This document shows positions 4,165-37,633 of a stretch of 64,000 nt of DNA, in pieces. Below the pieces are notes generated by a model, which did no database searches, was not told the DNA's origin, and saw only the letters and a list, made by a program, of their open reading frames with translations. The translations under genes and the position numbers were made by a program. Numbering within the stretch: the first letter of the stretch is position 1; every line of letters begins with the position of its first letter. The DNA is from Escherichia phage D6: the sequence record NC_050154.1; one strand, given 5' to 3'.

Positions 4165-4553
4165 AAAGCAACACCACGCTTTTTAACGGCGGCATTCCAC
4201 AGCTTATTCGCCATGTCCACCAGCTCTCGTTGCTCTTTTCGCGCCTGTTCGACTGATTTCCTGCTACAGTTTTTAACCAGTAAGCTACCGTATTCAGGCG
4301 TGCGCCCGCGCACCTTGAACTGATATCCGTTCAGACCATGTAGCCAGTATTTTCGTGGATACACACGATCATCCAGCTCACAGATTGCCCTGCTTGAACG
4401 AACAAAATGACGAATGATGTTAGTTACACTTACTCGTGAAACATGGAGATGAGGGTATTTTTCTTTGGCGAGAGTGGTAATTTCAGTGACTGTCAGATAG
4501 CAGTCAGCCCTGATCATGATATCCGCAATTTCTGCGCTGCTGATTTGTTCCAT
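4161..4553 (-). CDS. Hypothetical protein in the late-promoter-activator position (Lpa-like?)
   Basis: 130 aa; overlaps pacA start (ATGA); operator-like motif 77 bp upstream, as for C1-controlled lpa in P1. Confidence 0.3.
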   Translation of the reverse strand: MEQISSAEIADIMIRADCYLTVTEITTLAKEKYPHLHVSRVSVTNIIRHFVRSSRAICELDDRVYPRKYWLHGLNGYQFKVRGRTPEYGSLLVKNCSRKSVEQARKEQRELVDMANKLWNAAVKKRGVAL

Positions 4554-12282: not shown

Positions 12283-15200
12283 TTAGGCCGCATCGGCGAT
12301 TATTTTACGCAGTTCATCTACCGAGTAACGCGTAGATACCATCCATGCAGGACGGTCAAAGTTCACATCAGCAACCGGGTTTGCTTCAAAATTCCAGAAA
12401 CGCCCGCCAATCTTCTTAATCGCGTCTTTGGCGTTCCGTATTGTCGAGGAACCTGGTTGGTCGGCAATGAGATAAACCGCGCCAACGTCCTCGCTGACGC
12501 TCCACCAGCGCCCGCGAACACGCGCCTTAGCGCGAATCGGCTTATCATTAACCACAATGATATAGTCATCATTCGCCGCTTCATCAGCTCTGGCTTCAGC
12601 CACTGCCGCCTGCTCTTCTCTTTTGCTTTCAGCCTGCTCAAGCCTTTCCGCGATCTCTGATTCAGTGGCCCCGCCGTTTTTCAGCGATACATAGTCCTGC
12701 CACGTTGACGATTTGAGCGTATCCGGCAACTCATTCACATAGTCGCCGTCTTTCAACTCACGGGCGCGGCGGGTAGCCATTTCGACCAGGCGATTAACAG
12801 AAACAGCATCAGCAAAATCGTCCTTACTAATGTGTTTTTCATCAAATGCATTGATGACAGCCCCCACCTTAATCCACTGTGCTGCCGGTGATTCCAGGGG
12901 GTTATCAGCCTGAACAATGGCGAGTTTCGCTCCATCTACCCCATTATTCGCCAGCTGTTCCAATGCCGTCCATCCATCTGCATCACTGAGTGATTTATAT
13001 TGCTCAAACAATGCATCGCGCCAGGCCACCAGCGCAGAACGTGTTTTTTCGATCTTCGCCTTAATTTTCGCGATCTTGACCTGATTAAACATCCGTTCAA
13101 TATCATCGATATTGCTAAAGGCTTTCATCCTGCCCTGGAATAAACGGTATGCCAGCACGGTCCTCCAGAATGATTCCAGACCTTCTCCGGACGGTTTGCG
13201 GAACAAGCTAAGAATATCTTCAGAAGTGACTTTATTAAGCGAACGACCTGACAGACCACGCCCAGCCATCCAGTTTTCGAACTCCTGGGTAACATCATCC
13301 ATCGTTGCCTGTGCGCCCCATGCCTGCATTCCCTGGGTGTAATCATACCCATACAATGCCTGGAGGAATCCCTCGCCGTCCACGATATTCAGCGGGTTAT
13401 CACTGGCTTGTATTTTTGCCACTTCACGCTTCAGCGCCTCGTCGTTGCCATCAGGATATATCCATCGCTCAGGTGCTATATCCGATGCTCGCCCGATTTT
13501 TTGGCCTATCACGCCATCATAGGCCGATGACAGCGCGATCTGACCATCATCTGTGCGATATGCCCAGTATTTAATAGCTGACCCACCGCCCCATGCATTA
13601 CCAGGTTTACCAGCAATAACATTCATTACCCCATTGCGAATAGCATCATAGAACTGATCGCGAGTAAGTATTGTTGATAGCTGGTGGCACTGAACACCAC
13701 GCGCAGCCGTTGCGCGCGATTCAGCTACCCCCTCTTCAAAAGTTACCGCTTCAATCACAGAGTCAAACGGCAATGTAACGATTGCCCCCGGTGCTCGAGC
13801 GTAACGACTTGCTCTATCCAGCCAGGCGATACGGCAGAGGTATTGTGCTTTTTCACCGTCAATTTTTTCCACCCGGACAATCGCTGTTGTTTCGCGATCA
13901 TCAATGACTGCACGGTAATAACTACCTTTATGCAACAGGATATTCTTGTCAGTGCGCATATATTCCTGTGGGTTCTGAATAACATCGATACTGATATCCA
14001 GCACACCAGACTTAATAGCGCGCTCCACATCACCACGAGAGCGTTTCATTATGGTATCCGCGTCTTTTGCCCTGGTGATCGCAAACCGCAGCACCCGCGC
14101 ACGTTTTCTGTAGCTACTCAACTGCTCAAGCGCGTATTTTTGCCCATTCCTGTTCGTACCCGCTTTTATCAGGTCGTCAAGATTTCGCTGGTAATACTCT
14201 ATCTGTTCCATCGCGCTTTTCAGTTCTGTCTCCATCATGCCGATATCTTTTCCGGCGGCGTTTGCCGCTTTCAGGTAGATATCGAGAGCATTGTTGGCCT
14301 CGCGCTGTGCTTTCAGTTTCAGACGTTCTTCACGCTCTTGCGCCTGGCGAGCCATGATTGCGCGGCGTTCTTCCGGGTTTGCCGCCAGCATAATGGCGCG
14401 TTCATCAGCATCATCCGCATCACCATTGGCGATCTCTGACATGTCGGAGGTCATCACCATCTTGATCCAGTCTTTCTTACGTTTAAGCGTATCCAGACGG
14501 AAGTCATCGAATGTGCCTTTGCCACAATAGTAGTGAACATTGACCTTTTCTTGCGGTGAACCTACGCGCGCACCGCGCCCATTTCGTTGGTCGATACTGG
14601 CTGGTGTCCAGGGTAGTGTCAGGTGGTGGATATCGGTTGTCCCGATGTGCAGGTTAATACCTACTTCAGCCTTCTTGTTACAGATTATGATGCGCGTGCG
14701 ACCTTCGTTATAGTCGGCGGCAATACCTTCCATGCCCTCAAGGCCAGCATCATTTTTAGCGGAGAGATAATCCTCATATTGGGCAAGTTTGCTGTAGTAG
14801 GTTTCCCATGCCCCTTCTTTGTATTCACCGTTTTTGTTTGGAGTAGGTTCGGTCGGCTTATTCACCTTCTTCAGTTTGATGCCACCAGCCTGGCTAACTG
14901 TCGTCGCATTGATAATGCCAATCTCCTGCTCCGGCATTTGCAGTGCACTGGCGATAATACGGCGCAGCTTCTGGTGCTGGGCTTTTTCATCAATAAAGAC
15001 GATCTGCTTACCGTTCTTCAGACCTTCACGAAGATTTTCGATCAGCGCGGCATACTTCGGCGGGATGGGGTGCGATACCTGCTGCATATCAATGCCGGCA
15101 GCCGCAATGGCCTTCAGTATTTCAGCTTCCAGTTCAATGCTGGCACGTATTTCAACATGCGTCGGATGTTCACTAAAAGCGGTCTTCACTACCTTGCTGG

Positions 15201-30731: not shown

Positions 30732-31152
30732 GCTTTTCGATCGTAAACTGGCGCTCTATGCAGTCATTGATAGGGAAAATGCGATAAAGCGGATTCAGTC
30801 GGCAGTTACCGTTAGTCAATGTGACTTTCAGATCCCACTTCGTTGGCTCAAGATATTTCGTATCGATGAGCAAATACTCTTCTCTCTCACCGCGTTTTGA
30901 GGCGTCAACTGGTCGCGTTTTCCCTGAAATAACCACAGATGGATTTTTCAGGTCTTGCAACCAATATTCGATTTGAGCATTGCTCACCCAGCTTCGCTTA
31001 ACACGTAGCGAAACAGGAAATGCTATAGCGGATTCTTTCACTACAGCGTCACCAATACTCAAAATCTCAACACTCTTGCGACGAAAAATGAAACGGTCAA
31101 TGATGGCAACAAATGCCATGATAAAAATGAAATAATTTCCAAAGTTACCCAT
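30706..31152 (-). CDS. Antiholin-like protein (LydB-like), one N-terminal TM segment
   Basis: 148 aa; N-terminal hydrophobic helix; directly follows the holin-like gene. Confidence 0.35.
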   Translation of the reverse strand: MGNFGNYFIFIMAFVAIIDRFIFRRKSVEILSIGDAVVKESAIAFPVSLRVKRSWVSNAQIEYWLQDLKNPSVVISGKTRPVDASKRGEREEYLLIDTKYLEPTKWDLKVTLTNGNCRLNPLYRIFPINDCIERQFTIEKREGDWDVK

Positions 31153-31478
31153 TATTTCTCTCCACCTTTTCCCCCATTCGCTATTACGCTTAAGAGATTC
31201 AAGACGTTACTAGCTCTGGACTTCAAGCCCTGTAAAATTTCACTACCGTTGTTACTGGCAATCAGAACAACGCAGAAAATGATACCTTCAGGCCATTCTT
31301 GGCTAACCGCCACCCCATACCCCGCAAGCCCGGCTGTTACCGCAGTAAACAATTCACTCGCAAGATTGAGCAGGGACGCAGAAATGCGCCCGTCTCTAAC
31401 TCCGAGAAGGAATACGCCGGTTCCACTTAGTAGGGATGTTATGACTACTACAGCCAGATTTTCATAATCTGCAAACAT
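31152..31478 (-). CDS. Holin-like protein (LydA-like), three predicted TM segments
   Basis: 108 aa with three hydrophobic helices and a charged C-terminus. Confidence 0.45.
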   Translation of the reverse strand: MFADYENLAVVVITSLLSGTGVFLLGVRDGRISASLLNLASELFTAVTAGLAGYGVAVSQEWPEGIIFCVVLIASNNGSEILQGLKSRASNVLNLLSVIANGGKGGEK

Positions 31479-31556
31479 ACCCCTCCAGAAATAACATCTA
31501 ATGCGCCACTAACTTAGTCAGTTTGTTATTTCCTTACAGGACATCTTCTAGAATCT

Positions 31557-31579
31557 CCCCCCTTAACATACAAGGGGGG
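31557..31579. promoter_or_regulatory. GC-rich palindrome that would sequester the cin RBS
   Basis: cccccctt-aacatac-aagggggg; the GGGGGG run is the only SD-like sequence, 5 nt before the cin ATG. Confidence 0.35.
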
Positions 31580-31583
31580 ACAT

Positions 31584-32144
31584 ATGCTTATTGGATACAT
31601 TCGCGTATCAACTAATGACCAAAACACCGCTTTACAACGAAACGCCCTTGAAAGCGCAGGATGTGAGCTAATTTTTGAGGATAAGGCGAGCGGCAAAAAG
31701 GCTGAACGCCCAGGGTTAAAAAAGGTTCTGCGTATTCTTTCCAGAGGTGACACCCTGGTCGTATGGAAGTTAGATCGCCTTGGGCGCAGCATGCGTCACT
31801 TGGTTGTGCTGGTGGAAGAGCTGCGTGACAGAGGCATTAACTTCCGGAGTCTCACTGACTCCATCGACACCAGTACACCAATGGGGCGCTTTTTCTTTCA
31901 CGTAATGGGTGCGCTGGCAGAAATGGAACGTGAGCTTATCATTGAACGTACACGCGCTGGACTTGATGCAGCTCGCGCAGAAGGTCGTATAGGTGGGCGT
32001 CGGCCTAAATACCAAGAAGAAACATGGCAGCAAATGCGGCGATTGCTGGAGAAGGGCATCCCTCGTAAGCAGGTTGCAATCATCTATGATGTGGCTGTTT
32101 CCACGCTTTATAAGAAGTTTCCGGCATCATCATTTCAATCCTAA
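31584..32144 (+). CDS. cin: Cin-type serine DNA invertase
   Basis: 186 aa; near-identical N-terminus to P1 Cin/Mu Gin/Hin (MLIGYIRVSTNDQNT ... GDTLVVWKLDRLGRS); catalytic Ser in RVSTNDQ. Confidence 0.9.
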   Translation: MLIGYIRVSTNDQNTALQRNALESAGCELIFEDKASGKKAERPGLKKVLRILSRGDTLVVWKLDRLGRSMRHLVVLVEELRDRGINFRSLTDSIDTSTPMGRFFFHVMGALAEMERELIIERTRAGLDAARAEGRIGGRRPKYQEETWQQMRRLLEKGIPRKQVAIIYDVAVSTLYKKFPASSFQS

Positions 32145-32160
32145 ACCTTGGTTTAAGAGA
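32135..32160. promoter_or_regulatory. cix-type crossover site (left)
   Basis: aaaccttggtttaagagaa with AACCTTGGTT centre typical of cix/gix/hix sites; overlaps the cin stop codon. Confidence 0.6.
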
Positions 32161-34251: not shown

Positions 34252-34278
34252 AAGGCCCGCTATCGGGCCTTAATTTTT
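34252..34278. terminator. Bidirectional hairpin between convergent U' and U
   Basis: ggcccg-ctat-cgggcc followed by T-rich tract. Confidence 0.5.
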
Positions 34279-34807: not shown

Positions 34808-37633
34808 TTACACCTGTGCGACGTTATACCATGTGCCATTGATGTATTTTTGTATTGGCCTGAAGATGGCTTCATCATCGCCATCTACTTCACCAATGAT
34901 TCTTAATCCGGTAATTGCGTGTCCGGCTTTTTCATAACGACCACCACGCGCCATCAATTGAACAACACGTGTGCCAAGTCGGACATCTCTCACATAGCGT
35001 GAGTCAAAATTGCCATAATTGCCGGGAATAACTTGCGCACCACAAAGCCAGTTACCGTTATTATCCATGTACGCCTGACCATCGGTGCCATTGGCTGTCC
35101 TTGAGTTATTAATCATGTAGATGCCAAATTGCTTGTTCCCCAGTCCACCTATCATGAACTTTCGGTCGGCGTGATTCTGGCGAAGTAACGCCTGAGCGCT
35201 ATCAGTGTTAACTATATTTTTCCCAAAGATAGCGTTGTTATCGCGCATCTGAATCCACATACCATTACTGCTGTTAATAGCAAAACGGTCTGAAAGTGTC
35301 TCCCCTGAAACATTAAGACCACGTCCCATCGAAACAGCGCCAGTAGCGTTATTAATCCATAATGGCCTTAATCCGTTATAAGTCCCCATGTTGTCACCGG
35401 AGTTTGTCAACATGAAGTATGTATTTGAACCATCATTACGAATAAAGAATCCGTAATTACCATAAGCAATACGTAGGCCGTTTGCTGATTTTGATATGAC
35501 TTCGCCATTTACAATGGCATTGACAAGAACATACAAAGCATCCCATTTAAGATTCATCAGGTCTTTTGTTGTGGTACTTTGTTTGCTTCTCCATTTGAAA
35601 TATTCATTGCCGTTGTCGCCTGTCTCAAACCACATGTATGAATCAGTATCGCTGTCGGCATCATTTTTAAAACCAATCTTCGCCCAGTCAGTATTCCGAA
35701 TCCAGGCAAGGATTGAGTCGTTTTCAAAAGTAAGTCCACCGGACAAGGTATCGCCTGTCTTTTGAACCGCGTTATCAGCCTTGTTTACCGTTTCCTGTAG
35801 ATTTAAATCTTCCGCCGTTAGCTCAATATTTTTAGAACCGTCAAACGAGACGCCGTTGATAGTACATGCTATCTGCAATTTGGTCGCTGTAGCCGCATTA
35901 CCAGAGGTGTCCTGATTCCCTTTGGCATTGACGCCGGGAACTGAATCTTTTGACGTATAGATCTGTGCCCACTCGGACCATGCCGCAGCAGTGCTATCTC
36001 TTTTGGATCGAATGAAAGCAGGTGCATGAGCGCCATTTGTGCCACTCCAGCCAATGAATAACTCACCTTCGCCAGCAGCGGTGGCACCTTTAAGGTGAAG
36101 CACATTGCCATAGGGGGAAGGGTAGCCATTGTTGTATGCCTCATACATCTGCAATCCAGTAGCAGCACCTTGCGTTGTACCGGTAAGCGCAGTAACGCGT
36201 CCTCTAGACGTAATTGTTGGTATCGAAATGTTCGTAGAACCATCGAACCTGACGCCATTAATGTTTATGGCTGTTTTTAATTTCGTCGCGGTATCGGCGT
36301 TCCCTGTCAGCGCCCCGGTGATCCCGCCGTTGAAAGTCTGGCGTGCACTCCACGTGTTAGCCGTGCTCAACAGGGGGATCTTTTCACCGCTGGTACCGAG
36401 TTCTCTTAAACCAAGGTATTGGATAACGGCCAGTGTGCTTGTTTTAGCCAGAATATCGCGACCGACTGACGTTAAATCAGTCTGCGCTACCGTATCCTTA
36501 CCGGTGAAATAAGGCAGTTTGTTTGCACCAGTCGCAAGGCCAGCGAGCGCGGTTAAAGTTGCATCCAGAGGCTGTTTGCCTGCCAGCGCATTTGTCATTG
36601 TTGTCGCAAAGTTCGGGTCATTACCAAGTGCTGCGGCAAGCTCATTCAGGGTATCAAGAGCTTCTGGTGATGAACCAACCAATGCGGATATGGCAGCTCT
36701 TACATAAGCGGTCGTAGCAATCTGCGTGTTATTCGTACCCTGTGCAGCGGTAGGCGCAGTAGGTATTCCCGTTAATGCAGGACTTGCTAAAGGAGCTTTA
36801 AGAGCCAGAGCATTGTTGATAGTTGTGCTGAAATTCGGGTCGTTATTGATCGCAGCCGCTATTTCTTTCAGCGTGTCCATCGTTCCCGGAGCACCATTGA
36901 TAAGCGCATTTATAGCAGCATAGACAAAGGCCGCATTTGCGATCTGTGTGTTGTTTGTACCGGGTTCAGGTGTCGGCGAAGTCGGCGTACCTGACAGATG
37001 CGGACTATCGAGCGGAGCTTTTGTATCAACCAAATCATGGAGAGTTTTGACAGCCAGAGGTGTAGCCGCTTTTCTTTCTTCTGTACTGCTTATTTCATTA
37101 GAGAATTCGACACCAACAGCACGGTTAACCCGGTATTTAAGCACAATCATTTCTTTAGTCACAGCCGTTGCGCCGTTAGGCACGATAACTCGACATAATT
37201 CAATTTGATTCTGCCCAATAGTATTGTCCGTACGCGCGTAAATTCTTGCAGCACTGACAGAAGATGCGCTATCTACCTGTGTCGTTTTTACACCATGTTC
37301 AAAATTGGCTTCCAGCACAATAATGTTGGTAGCCCCAGCCTTTACCGAGACAGTCACATCTTCTATTTGCTGAACGGATATCTGAACATTATTTACATCT
37401 ACTGAAGCAGCCCCTTTACCTTCTGAGTTTTCAGAAGTTATACGAACACTCAACCCTGTGCCGGGAACTGGTTCAAATCCACAGTAAAAGCCAGGCAAAA
37501 CAATATTTTTAAGTTTTCTGTTAAGAGCCGAACTACTATAGAGTTCGAAATATTGAACATCAGCAAGCAAAGGCTGTGAGACACCAGAGGATAGTGTCAT
37601 TATGTTGTTCGTTTTATCAGCCCCCATAATCAA
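34808..37633 (-). CDS. S: Tail fibre protein S (constant part fused to the currently selected variable part)
   Basis: 941 aa; spans cixR; C-terminal half includes the inverted-repeat region. Confidence 0.8.
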   Translation of the reverse strand: MIMGADKTNNIMTLSSGVSQPLLADVQYFELYSSSALNRKLKNIVLPGFYCGFEPVPGTGLSVRITSENSEGKGAASVDVNNVQISVQQIEDVTVSVKAGATNIIVLEANFEHGVKTTQVDSASSVSAARIYARTDNTIGQNQIELCRVIVPNGATAVTKEMIVLKYRVNRAVGVEFSNEISSTEERKAATPLAVKTLHDLVDTKAPLDSPHLSGTPTSPTPEPGTNNTQIANAAFVYAAINALINGAPGTMDTLKEIAAAINNDPNFSTTINNALALKAPLASPALTGIPTAPTAAQGTNNTQIATTAYVRAAISALVGSSPEALDTLNELAAALGNDPNFATTMTNALAGKQPLDATLTALAGLATGANKLPYFTGKDTVAQTDLTSVGRDILAKTSTLAVIQYLGLRELGTSGEKIPLLSTANTWSARQTFNGGITGALTGNADTATKLKTAININGVRFDGSTNISIPTITSRGRVTALTGTTQGAATGLQMYEAYNNGYPSPYGNVLHLKGATAAGEGELFIGWSGTNGAHAPAFIRSKRDSTAAAWSEWAQIYTSKDSVPGVNAKGNQDTSGNAATATKLQIACTINGVSFDGSKNIELTAEDLNLQETVNKADNAVQKTGDTLSGGLTFENDSILAWIRNTDWAKIGFKNDADSDTDSYMWFETGDNGNEYFKWRSKQSTTTKDLMNLKWDALYVLVNAIVNGEVISKSANGLRIAYGNYGFFIRNDGSNTYFMLTNSGDNMGTYNGLRPLWINNATGAVSMGRGLNVSGETLSDRFAINSSNGMWIQMRDNNAIFGKNIVNTDSAQALLRQNHADRKFMIGGLGNKQFGIYMINNSRTANGTDGQAYMDNNGNWLCGAQVIPGNYGNFDSRYVRDVRLGTRVVQLMARGGRYEKAGHAITGLRIIGEVDGDDEAIFRPIQKYINGTWYNVAQV
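35800..36413. repeat. Right inverted repeat of the C segment
   Basis: Reverse complement of 32146..32762 at high but imperfect identity. Confidence 0.8.
36399..36426. promoter_or_regulatory. cix-type crossover site (right)
   Basis: ttctcttaaaccaaggtattggataa, mirror of the left site with the same AACCAAGG centre. Confidence 0.6.

What the first reader, a model, noticed from the sequence alone, without database searches (positions are those of the whole stretch)
31557..31579. Palindrome sequestering the cin ribosome-binding site
An 8-bp GC stem (cccccctt / aagggggg) with a 7-nt loop ends 5 nt before the cin ATG, and its 3' arm is the only SD-like sequence. This could keep invertase translation low or make it conditional, which would set the frequency of tail-fibre switching. 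The same palindrome lies upstream of the divergent holin-like gene.
Basis: seen in the sequence. Interest (0 to 1): 0.35.

Follow-up and report, generated by a model that had tools for sequence, protein, structure and literature searches.

The report
Hairpin over the cin ribosome-binding site
A real GC-rich palindrome in a P1-like phage-plasmid would bury the ribosome-binding site of the tail-fibre-switching invertase gene if fully transcribed, but it is lineage-specific, evolves at a neutral-like rate, and sits so close to the likely promoter that much of it may never be in the mRNA.

Summary
The palindrome is confirmed: CCCCCCTT-N7-AAGGGGGG at 31557-31579, 9 bp counting T31556-A31580. It ends 4 nt, not 5, before the cin ATG (31584). 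Its 3' arm is the only Shine-Dalgarno (SD) sequence. As RNA it folds at -16.4 kcal/mol (z -3.5). Opening the SD costs about 16 kcal/mol, the highest of 95 ORFs in the window.

The window is a P1-like phage-plasmid. Its Cin is 98% identical to P1 Cin, it has intact cix sites, and it lacks lydC. P1, P7 and the sister lineage L056 do not have this palindrome. P1 and many Gin/Pin-type leaders carry unrelated hairpins that also hold the SD.

Thirty-seven related copies were examined. All 18 with an intact cin keep a hairpin (-6.3 to -16.4 kcal/mol among the 17 folded). The patch diverges at the same rate as cin synonymous sites, with no compensatory double changes.

A conserved -10-like hexamer, TA(G/A)AAT, ends 2 nt before the 5' arm. 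A normal start site (31560-31563) would therefore exclude most of that arm, dropping the opening cost to 2-6 kcal/mol.

Verdict: probably a translational throttle on cin whose strength depends on the start site. A neutral by-product is a serious rival. Interest is modest.

The parts
31556..31564 (+). 5' arm of the palindrome (TCCCCCCTT). The C6 tract begins 2-3 nt after the -10-like hexamer, so it covers the expected start-site window.
   Evidence: Variable among relatives: C->T at 31559, 31560 and 31561, and C6->C5. Replaced by GCCG in sister lineage L056.
31565..31571 (+). 7-nt loop, AACATAC
   Evidence: Invariant in all group A copies; A->G at the second position in group B.
31572..31580 (+). 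3' arm (AAGGGGGGA), which is the cin Shine-Dalgarno sequence
   Evidence: Best anti-SD duplex, -11.0 kcal/mol. An SD-type purine run is kept in every lineage: AAGGGGGG, AAGGGGG, AAGGGAG, AAGGGGAGG and G9.
31549..31554 (+). -10-like hexamer TAGAAT, the candidate cin promoter -10
   Evidence: TAGAAT, TAAAAT or TAGGAT in the 33 copies (the four added also have TAAAAT or TAGAAT), with T1, A2, A5 and T6 invariant. It aligns positionally with TAAAAT in P1, P7 and L056; in P1 that hexamer is annotated as the predicted P1cin -10. The -35 is poor, and the consensus scan did not call this promoter. Inferred, not shown.
31560..31563 (+). Expected transcription-start window (6-9 nt after the -10-like hexamer; bases C, C, C, T)
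   Evidence: Inference from standard sigma70 -10-to-start spacing. SD opening cost is 6.3, 3.4, 2.0 and 1.9 kcal/mol for 5' ends at 31560-31563, against 16.3-16.6 for 5' ends at or upstream of 31556.
31584..32144 (+). cin, a serine DNA invertase (186 aa)
   Evidence: 98% identical to P1 Cin. Pfam Resolvase plus HTH_7.
31582..31608 (+). Second, weaker predicted hairpin pairing AUAUGC (containing the start codon) with GCGUAU at 31603-31608
   Evidence: P(unpaired) of the AUG is about 0.2-0.45. Prediction only.
31441..31468 (+). Alternative upstream promoter-like site (ATGACT-16-CATAAT). If active, it would put the whole palindrome into a leader of about 109 nt.
   Evidence: Consensus scan. It lies inside the lydA 5' coding region, so its conservation is uninformative.
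31152..31478 (-). LydA-type holin gene, divergent from cin. Its own SD (GGAGGGG) is at 31480-31486.
   Evidence: Annotated as holin in related plasmids.
31519..31533 (+). Conserved intergenic block CAGTTTGTTATTTCC, shared with the P1, P7 and L056 cin-upstream regions
   Evidence: Alignment A3.
32141..32159 (+). cixL crossover site at the 3' end of cin. Its partner, cixR, is at 36403-36421 on the - strand.
   Evidence: P1 annotation of cixL.

Best explanation
The palindrome is the translation-initiation region of cin in one lineage of P1-like phage-plasmids. Its 3' arm is the cin Shine-Dalgarno sequence. Its 5' arm is a C-tract lying between the cin promoter's -10 element and that SD.

In any cin mRNA that contains the 5' arm, the two arms pair into a very stable hairpin that hides the SD from 30S subunits, so little Cin is made and C-segment (tail-fibre) inversion stays rare. 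The strength of the block is set by how much of the C-tract is in the transcript, at about 3 kcal/mol per C.

Shown here: the anatomy, the thermodynamics, retention of a hairpin in all intact-cin relatives, and non-homologous SD-holding hairpins on other invertase leaders. Inferred: that the 5' arm is transcribed, that the hairpin forms in vivo, and that it lowers translation and inversion frequency.
For: - Hairpin energy is -13.8 kcal/mol (8 bp) or -16.4 (9 bp), z -3.5 against shuffles.
- SD opening energy is 16.2 kcal/mol, rank 1 of 95 ORF proxies (median 4.5, 95th percentile 10.0). This exceeds the -11.0 kcal/mol SD:anti-SD duplex.
- Permuting only the upstream leader gives p=0.017-0.02.
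- All 18 relatives with an intact 186-aa cin keep a hairpin; the 17 folded ones span -6.3 to -16.4 kcal/mol. All three substituted 5'-arm positions are C->T, which keeps G.U pairs in RNA.
- Copies with degenerate arms (group B, L116) all have a truncated or pseudogenised cin.
- The P1 leader has an unrelated 9-bp hairpin containing its annotated RBS (-10.2 kcal/mol, z -2.1).
- 10 of 35 distinct invertase leaders show SD occlusion at p<0.05, against 3 of 36 other window genes. Opening energies have median 7.0 vs 4.5, Mann-Whitney p=5e-5.
- C-segment inversion is described as infrequent (bioRxiv 10.1101/2022.07.24.501295).
Against: - The -10-like hexamer ends 2 nt before the 5' arm. It is conserved in position across P1, P7, L056 and this lineage, with T1, A2, A5 and T6 invariant. 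Canonical starts at 31560-31563 would leave at most 5 bp and an opening cost of 2-6 kcal/mol, an ordinary value.
- The patch diverges at the cin synonymous rate (0.068 vs 0.076), with no double compensatory change. Three changes break or remove pairs: A31572T, G31576A and G31579A.
- The hairpin is absent from sister lineage L056, whose cin reading frame is open (193-aa ORF from an upstream in-frame ATG), and from P7.
- The intact-versus-pseudogene association rests on only one or two evolutionary events.
- The family-wide enrichment uses non-independent leaders, and the control false-positive rate was about 8-11%.
- No transcript or expression data exist for this lineage.
Confidence: 0.45

Rival explanations
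1. Functionally neutral by-product. The cin mRNA starts within or after the C-tract, so the full hairpin never forms. The palindrome is then just a G-rich SD next to a C-rich promoter-proximal stretch. It would have been made more perfect by homopolymer slippage, or by quasi-palindrome template-switch mutation, in one sub-lineage.
For: - The position of the -10-like hexamer relative to the arm, and the steep loss of opening cost with start position.
- Neutral-like divergence of the patch.
- Tract-length polymorphism: C5/C6 and G5/G6/G9.
- Imperfect T-containing forms lie basally, and the perfect C6/G6 form lies mostly in nested clades, so the perfect form is probably derived.
- L056 has the same SD and -10-like hexamer without the C-run.
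- Leader-only shuffles already give a high opening cost (mean 8.1 kcal/mol) because of composition.
Against: - cin is the most occluded of 95 ORFs.
- The complementarity extends 3-4 bp upstream of any start site allowed by that -10, which this model leaves unexplained unless it arose by templated mutation.
- Several successive changes all increased pairing.
- Unrelated invertase leaders (P1, Gin/Pin type) also place the SD in a stem.
Confidence: 0.3
2. pyrC/pyrD-type conditional control. RNA polymerase chooses among start sites in the C-tract, or stutters on it, according to nucleotide pools. Starts at upstream Cs make transcripts whose extra 5' Cs complete the SD-occluding hairpin. Downstream starts make translatable mRNA. 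This would couple tail-fibre switching to growth state.
For: - The anatomy matches the published description of pyrC/pyrD: starts with CTP 6-7 nt after the Pribnow box add two Cs that allow a 5' hairpin to sequester the RBS (PMC6524683).
- Here positions 6-8 after the -10-like hexamer are C, C, C, and each adds about 3 kcal/mol of SD occlusion.
Against: - There is no G at the alternative start position. The next purines are A31565 and A31566, 11-12 nt from the -10.
- Even the longest allowed transcript has only 5 bp (6.3 kcal/mol).
- The promoter itself is only predicted.
- Natural variants replace these Cs with Ts without loss of cin.
- There is no experimental evidence.
Confidence: 0.1
3. 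A DNA-level operator. The palindrome (12-nt arms, 11/12 complementary) binds a dimeric regulator that blocks cin transcription at or just after the start site, as the C1 operator on the P7 cin leader may do.
For: - Dyad symmetry directly downstream of the -10-like hexamer.
- P7 carries an annotated C1 operator at the equivalent place on its cin leader.
Against: - No match to the P1 C1 operator consensus anywhere in the window at 3 or fewer mismatches.
- The palindrome is unique in the window.
- The arms are the most variable part, and the C->T changes break DNA symmetry while preserving RNA pairing.
- It does not resemble cix half-sites, which need AAACC next to a 2-bp core.
Confidence: 0.07
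4. A transcriptional insulator or terminator between the divergent lydA and cin units, or a 5'-terminal stem-loop that stabilises cin mRNA.
For: A strong GC stem forms on both strands (-16.4 on +, -19.7 on -), in an intergenic position between divergent genes.
Against: - There is no U-tract after the stem on either strand, and the terminator scan did not call it.
- Nothing is transcribed toward it on the + strand.
- Leftward tail-fibre transcription meets a terminator-like hairpin at 34252-34271 before reaching cin.
- A stabilising 5' stem would not need to contain the SD.
Confidence: 0.05

Closest known systems
E. coli / Salmonella pyrC and pyrD leaders (start-site switching plus an SD-sequestering 5' hairpin)
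   Same: A -10 element is followed within a few nt by C residues at the start window. Extra 5' Cs complete a hairpin whose other arm contains the RBS (PMC6524683).
   Different: No G is available as an alternative start. The complementarity extends upstream of any feasible start. Neither the promoter nor nucleotide sensitivity has been shown. The gene is a phage invertase, not a pyrimidine-biosynthesis gene.
Phage P1 cin leader (GCTTGCTAT-N8-ATAGTGAGC, between the predicted P1cin -10 TAAAAT and the ATG)
   Same: It occupies the same position relative to the same gene (98% identical protein). It is a 9-bp stem whose 3' arm holds the annotated RBS, and it folds better than shuffles.
   Different: The sequence is unrelated. 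It is AU-rich and weaker (-10.2 kcal/mol, opening cost about 9), with a weak SD (GAG). The stem starts 6 nt after the -10, so it can be transcribed whole. P1 also has lydC between lydA and cin.
Gin/Pin-type invertase leaders (P2-like, phi80 pinL, Mu-like prophages)
   Same: A purine-rich SD pairs with an upstream pyrimidine run across a CTTTTG-type loop, with opening costs up to 11 kcal/mol.
   Different: The leaders are unrelated in sequence. The invertase lies on the other side of its invertible segment, with the crossover site about 55 nt upstream. They carry an invariant TGGCAT that can pair with AUGC of the start codon, or could be a sigma54-type -24 element. Many variants are not significant in the shuffle test.
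P7 Op(lydC) C1 operator on the cin leader
   Same: A regulatory element annotated immediately upstream of the cin ATG in a homologous intergenic region.
   Different: It is an asymmetric protein-binding site, not a hairpin. The P7 leader is unstructured (opening cost 0.6-3 kcal/mol).
Generic SD-sequestering cis elements (translational operators, RNA thermometers)
   Same: The SD sits in the 3' strand of a stem close to the AUG.
   Different: Nine pairs, six of them consecutive G-C, are too stable to melt in the physiological range (my own knowledge). There is no evidence of a ligand, protein or temperature trigger, and no Rfam family matches.

Membership tests
SD-sequestering leader hairpin (cis translational repression) | The Shine-Dalgarno sequence lies within a stem close to the start codon | tested here: met
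   The best anti-SD site, CAAGGGGGG, is the 3' arm, 4 nt from the AUG.
SD-sequestering leader hairpin (cis translational repression) | The structure is more stable than expected from composition, and opening it costs more than SD:anti-SD pairing gains | tested here: met
   -16.4 kcal/mol, z -3.5. Opening cost 16.2 vs -11.0 kcal/mol. Leader-shuffle p about 0.02.
SD-sequestering leader hairpin (cis translational repression) | Both arms are present in the mRNA (the start site lies upstream of the 5' arm) | not testable with these tools
   The sequence suggests otherwise for the best -10 candidate (31549-31554): expected starts at 31560-31563. An upstream promoter-like site at 31441-31468 would include both arms.
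SD-sequestering leader hairpin (cis translational repression) | Pairing is conserved or covaries among relatives | tested here: inconclusive
   A hairpin is kept in 18 of 18 intact-cin copies, and the 5'-arm changes are all C->U, giving G.U pairs. However, there are no double compensatory changes, the rate equals the synonymous rate, and the hairpin is absent in L056, P1 and P7.
SD-sequestering leader hairpin (cis translational repression) | Disrupting the stem raises translation | not testable with these tools
   Needs reporter fusions.
pyrC/pyrD-type start-site-switch control | C residues lie 6-7 nt downstream of the -10, and their inclusion completes the RBS hairpin | tested here: met
   Positions 6-8 are C31560-C31562. 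Opening cost rises from 2.0 to 3.4 to 6.3 kcal/mol as they are included. Definition taken from PMC6524683.
pyrC/pyrD-type start-site-switch control | An alternative purine start lies just downstream, and start-site choice is sensitive to nucleotide pools | tested here: inconclusive
   There is no G; the first purines are A31565 and A31566, 11-12 nt after the -10. Sensitivity to nucleotide pools cannot be tested here.
Intrinsic (Rho-independent) terminator | A GC-rich stem-loop followed by a U-tract | tested here: not met
   The terminator scan did not report it. The tails are ACATATGCTTATT on + and AGATTCTAGAAG on -.
cix/gix/hix invertase crossover site (quasi-cix) | Two 12-bp half-sites with AAACC next to a 2-bp core, about 26 bp in total | tested here: not met
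   The true cix sites are at 32141-32159 and 36403-36421. The palindrome has 7 nt between its arms and no AAACC/GGTTT.
P1 C1 repressor operator | Match to the 17-bp consensus ATTGCTCTAATAAATTT | tested here: not met
   No match with 3 or fewer mismatches in the whole window.
Cin/Gin/Hin/Pin serine-invertase switch (context of the finding) | A Resolvase plus HTH_7 recombinase next to an invertible segment bounded by inverted crossover sites | tested here: met
   Pfam hits. 98% identical to P1 Cin. The cix pair and 198- and 366-nt inverted repeats are present.

The most novel reading that the evidence does not exclude
The C6 tract is a start-site rheostat. RNA polymerase initiating at different Cs, or stuttering on the tract, produces cin mRNAs with 0 to 9 bp of SD-occluding stem. 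Invertase translation, and hence the tail-fibre switching rate, would then respond to CTP pools or growth state as in pyrC. More broadly, SD or AUG occlusion would be a convergent, independently evolved feature of Cin/Gin/Pin invertase leaders that sets phase-variation frequency at the translational level.
Probability: 0.12. Interest if true: 0.6.

Novelty: new member of a known kind. Interest (0 to 1): 0.3.

Why it matters
Invertase dosage sets how often a phage population switches host range, yet how Cin, Gin or Pin levels are kept low is poorly documented. I found nothing on translational control of these genes in the searchable literature.

If the hairpin works, this lineage supplies a ready-made natural allelic series for relating invertase translation to inversion frequency: -6.3 to -16.4 kcal/mol, C5/C6, G5/G6/G9, and -10 variants TAGAAT and TAAAAT. 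The recurrence of unrelated SD-holding stems on the P1 and Gin/Pin leaders would then point to a general design rule.

If it does not work, the palindrome is a cautionary example: it looks regulatory but mostly lies upstream of the transcript.

Tried and rejected
- Mutational or selection hotspot. The clustered variants suggested one, but patch divergence (0.068/nt) equals cin synonymous divergence (0.076). The contrast with the flanks arises because the lydA side is a much more conserved module.
- Two opposed SDs of closely spaced divergent genes creating the inverted repeat. Rejected: lydA has its own SD at 31480-31486, and L064 has no divergent gene at TGGCAT.
- Relic of the lydC RBS. The 5' arm resembles the complement of the P7 lydC SD, but the alignment places the P7 lydC start opposite the window's lydA start, not opposite the palindrome.
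- Terminator, quasi-cix site, C1 operator: not met.
- P1-type late-promoter box (AAGTTACTT-N4-TANNNT) near lydA: none found; three hits elsewhere against 4.6 expected.
- The 11-bp palindrome ACTAACTTAGT (31508-31518) as a repeated motif: 11 hits against 9.6 expected.
- Rfam: nothing for the window-type, P1-type, L056-type or Gin/Pin-type leaders.
- Column-wise covariation of the Gin/Pin inner hairpin failed because the stems shift register. RNAalifold recovered only GGCAU/AUGCU, with one-sided changes.
- The genome-contig scan with the cin 5' end found nothing.
- The P1 genome paper is not held, so P1 promoter information comes from the GenBank annotation, where the promoters are only predicted.

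Full report
**What is there.** The window carries the lysis/dar, cin and C-segment region of a P1-like phage-plasmid. The same stretch is 100% identical to a Salmonella plasmid, NZ_CP028198. It occurs on plasmids of roughly 90-110 kb in 80 of 5,426 complete E. coli genomes.

- cin (31584-32144) encodes a Resolvase plus HTH_7 protein 98% identical to P1 Cin.
- The crossover sites lie at 32141-32159 and 36403-36421, with flanking inverted repeats.
- The divergent gene at 31152-31478 is a LydA-type holin (43% to LydA, 33% to LydC), followed by LydB.
- Unlike P1 and P7, there is no lydC between the holin gene and cin.
- Megablast similarity to P1 begins at window 31582, two bases before the cin ATG.

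**The observation.** CCCCCCTT-AACATAC-AAGGGGGG occupies 31557-31579. T31556-A31580 adds a ninth pair, and the 12-nt arms are 11/12 complementary. The spacer to the ATG is ACAT, 4 nt rather than 5. The 3' arm is the only SD-like sequence, pairing with the 16S 3' end at -11.0 kcal/mol.

As RNA the element folds at -13.8 kcal/mol (8 bp) or -16.4 (9 bp), with z -3.5 against dinucleotide shuffles. The window holds about 15 perfect hairpins of 8 bp or more, mostly terminator-like, and this one is among the four strongest. About 1.2 of this strength are expected per 64 kb. Its position, not its existence, is what stands out. The energy needed to unpair the SD in a -60 to +30 transcript is 16.2 kcal/mol, the highest of 95 ORF proxies (median 4.5, 95th percentile 10.0).

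**Relatives.** Scans anchored on either flank recovered the same lineage. With fetched plasmid records, this gave 37 related copies besides the window. They fall into two groups.

*Group A* has the window-type leader.
- 18 copies have an intact 186-aa cin; four more carry a disrupted cin and one is truncated by its contig end.
- Its variants are C->T at 31559, 31560 or 31561, C6->C5, G6->G5 or G9, A31572T and G31579A.
- Hairpin energies span -6.3 to -16.4 kcal/mol in the 17 intact-cin copies that were folded.

*Group B*, plus the intermediate L116, has degenerate arms (TATCCTT...AAGGGAG, about -5 kcal/mol).
- Every copy has a truncated cin, annotated as a pseudogene in the two RefSeq records fetched.
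- Some carry another recombinase gene in the opposite orientation.

The clustered variation looked like a hotspot, but it is not. Mean pairwise distance in the 35-nt patch is 0.068/nt, against a synonymous p-distance of 0.076 in cin. The lydA side is simply far more conserved. All three substituted 5'-arm positions are C->T, which retains G.U pairing in RNA. With three sites and a transition bias this is not significant. Three 3'-arm changes break or remove pairs, and there is no double compensatory change.

**Comparison outside the lineage.** P1 and P7 lack the palindrome. The P7 lydC-cin spacer is the positional homologue of this intergenic region: both share a CAG(A/T)TTGTTATTTC block and a TA(A/G)AAT hexamer. 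P7 has an annotated C1 operator on the cin leader instead of a hairpin.

L056 is a sister lineage with the same lydA-cin junction, the same TAAAAT and the same SD (AAGGGGAGG). It has GCCG where the window has CTCCCCCC, and no significant hairpin. So the SD and the -10-like hexamer are ancestral, and the C-run arm is a lineage-specific addition.

In a cin tree, P1 nests inside group A (10-26 differences in 558 nt), while L056 cin is 86-98 differences away. The leader plus about the first 25 nt of cin is therefore a separate mosaic module. The imperfect T-containing forms sit basally, and the perfect C6/G6 form sits mostly in nested clades. This suggests the perfect palindrome is derived, though recombination makes that weak.

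**A recurrent theme.** Eighty invertase loci from IMG/VR gave 34-35 distinct leaders in at least five unrelated classes.
- The P1 leader folds GCUUGCUAU-N8-AUAGUGAGC, a 9-bp stem at -10.2 kcal/mol (z -2.1) with the annotated RBS in its 3' arm.
- Many Gin/Pin-type leaders (P2-like phages, phi80 pinL, Mu-like prophages) pair a purine-rich SD with an upstream pyrimidine run.

Opening energies are higher than for window genes (median 7.0 vs 4.5, p=5e-5). Permuting only the upstream leader gives p<0.05 for 10 of 35 leaders, against 4 of 37 control genes including cin itself. The leaders are not independent, so this is suggestive rather than established. No Rfam family matches any class, and I found no literature on translational control of these invertases.

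**The complication.** The hexamer TAGAAT (31549-31554) varies only at positions 3 and 4 (TAGAAT, TAAAAT, TAGGAT) across the copies. It aligns with the TAAAAT annotated in P1 as the predicted P1cin -10. It ends 2 nt before the 5' arm, and normal sigma70 spacing puts the start at 31560-31563. The SD opening cost depends steeply on the 5' end:

| 5' end of the transcript | SD opening cost (kcal/mol) |
|---|---|
| at or upstream of 31556 | 16.3-16.6 |
| 31557 | 14.9 |
| 31558 | 12.3 |
| 31559 | 9.3 |
| 31560 | 6.3 |
| 31561 | 3.4 |
| 31562 or later | about 2.0 |

From this promoter, then, the full 8-9 bp stem cannot exist in the mRNA; at most a 5-bp remnant can. A weaker promoter-like site at 31441-31468 would include everything. 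In P1 the stem begins 6 nt after the -10 and can be transcribed whole. No start-site data exist.

The main rival (0.30) is that the stem lies largely upstream of the transcript and is a neutral by-product of a G-rich SD next to a C-rich stretch, perfected by slippage or quasi-palindrome template switching (my own knowledge of that mutational mechanism).

A pyrC/pyrD-like conditional version (0.10) fits the anatomy described in PMC6524683, but there is no G as an alternative start and no experimental support. An operator (0.07) and a terminator or mRNA stabiliser (0.05) are disfavoured.

**Novelty.** SD sequestration is a textbook mechanism, so this would be a new member of a known kind. The possibly new element is its recurrence, in unrelated sequences, on invertase leaders.

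Noticed in passing
L058-L115 (e.g. L064:366-381), about 20-35 nt upstream of Gin/Pin-type invertase ATGs: TGGCAT is invariant in 22 distinct leaders. It can pair (GGCAU/AUGCU) with the start codon in all of them. It also fits a sigma54 -24/-12 pattern (TGGCAT-N7-GC), kept in most variants. It is neither a coding feature nor a divergent-gene start.
   Followed up: partly
L030 (OGYH01001011.1), around 14467-14500: An IS2 left end (TAGACTGGCCCCCTGAATCTCC) is inserted inside the SD arm of a group B palindrome (AAGG|TAGAC...). L006 (NZ_CP027309) has IS1203 inside cin.
   Followed up: no
L003, L005, L117 and other group B copies; 45 of 81 E. coli plasmid hits at 90-95% identity: All group B copies examined keep only a truncated cin remnant. 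In several, a different recombinase gene lies in the opposite orientation a few hundred bp downstream. The invertase appears to have been replaced, leaving the old leader as a fossil. The 45 hits at 90-95% identity are probably of this type.
   Followed up: partly
L118 (NZ_CP122593.1), around 775-800: An intact cin whose SD G-run is expanded to G9 (AAGGGGGGGGGCATATG). Elsewhere the tracts are C5/C6 and G5/G6. This is either homopolymer slippage at the RBS or an assembly error.
   Followed up: no
window 31488-31532: A 9-bp perfect inverted repeat (GAAATAACA / TGTTATTTC, 27 nt apart) brackets an 11-bp perfect palindrome, ACTAACTTAGT (31508-31518), upstream of lydA, where P1 has the LPdar late promoter. 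No P1-type -22 box plus -10 is recognisable, and the 11-mer is not enriched in the window.
   Followed up: partly
window, whole 64 kb: There is no match to the P1 C1 operator consensus (ATTGCTCTAATAAATTT) at 3 or fewer mismatches, which is unexpected for 64 kb of a P1-like element. Either the operators lie outside the window or the immunity specificity differs.
   Followed up: no
window, genes starting at 4553(-) and 50181(-): Two other genes have strongly occluded SDs (opening cost 15.2 and about 10.5 kcal/mol; leader-shuffle p about 0.007 each), comparable to cin.
   Followed up: no
window 34252-34271: A perfect 8-bp GC hairpin (AAGGCCCGCTATCGGGCCTT) sits between the convergent U' and U genes in the middle of the C segment. 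It looks like a bidirectional terminator that would stop tail-fibre operon transcription before it runs antisense into cin.
   Followed up: no
window 31584-31610 compared with P1 (L001:3003-3030): The first ~25 nt of cin (ATGCTTATTGGATACATTCGC) differ from P1 at 6 of 21 positions and resemble L056. The rest of cin is only 2-5% diverged from P1. A mosaic breakpoint therefore lies just inside the gene, next to the annotated inversion enhancer.
   Followed up: partly
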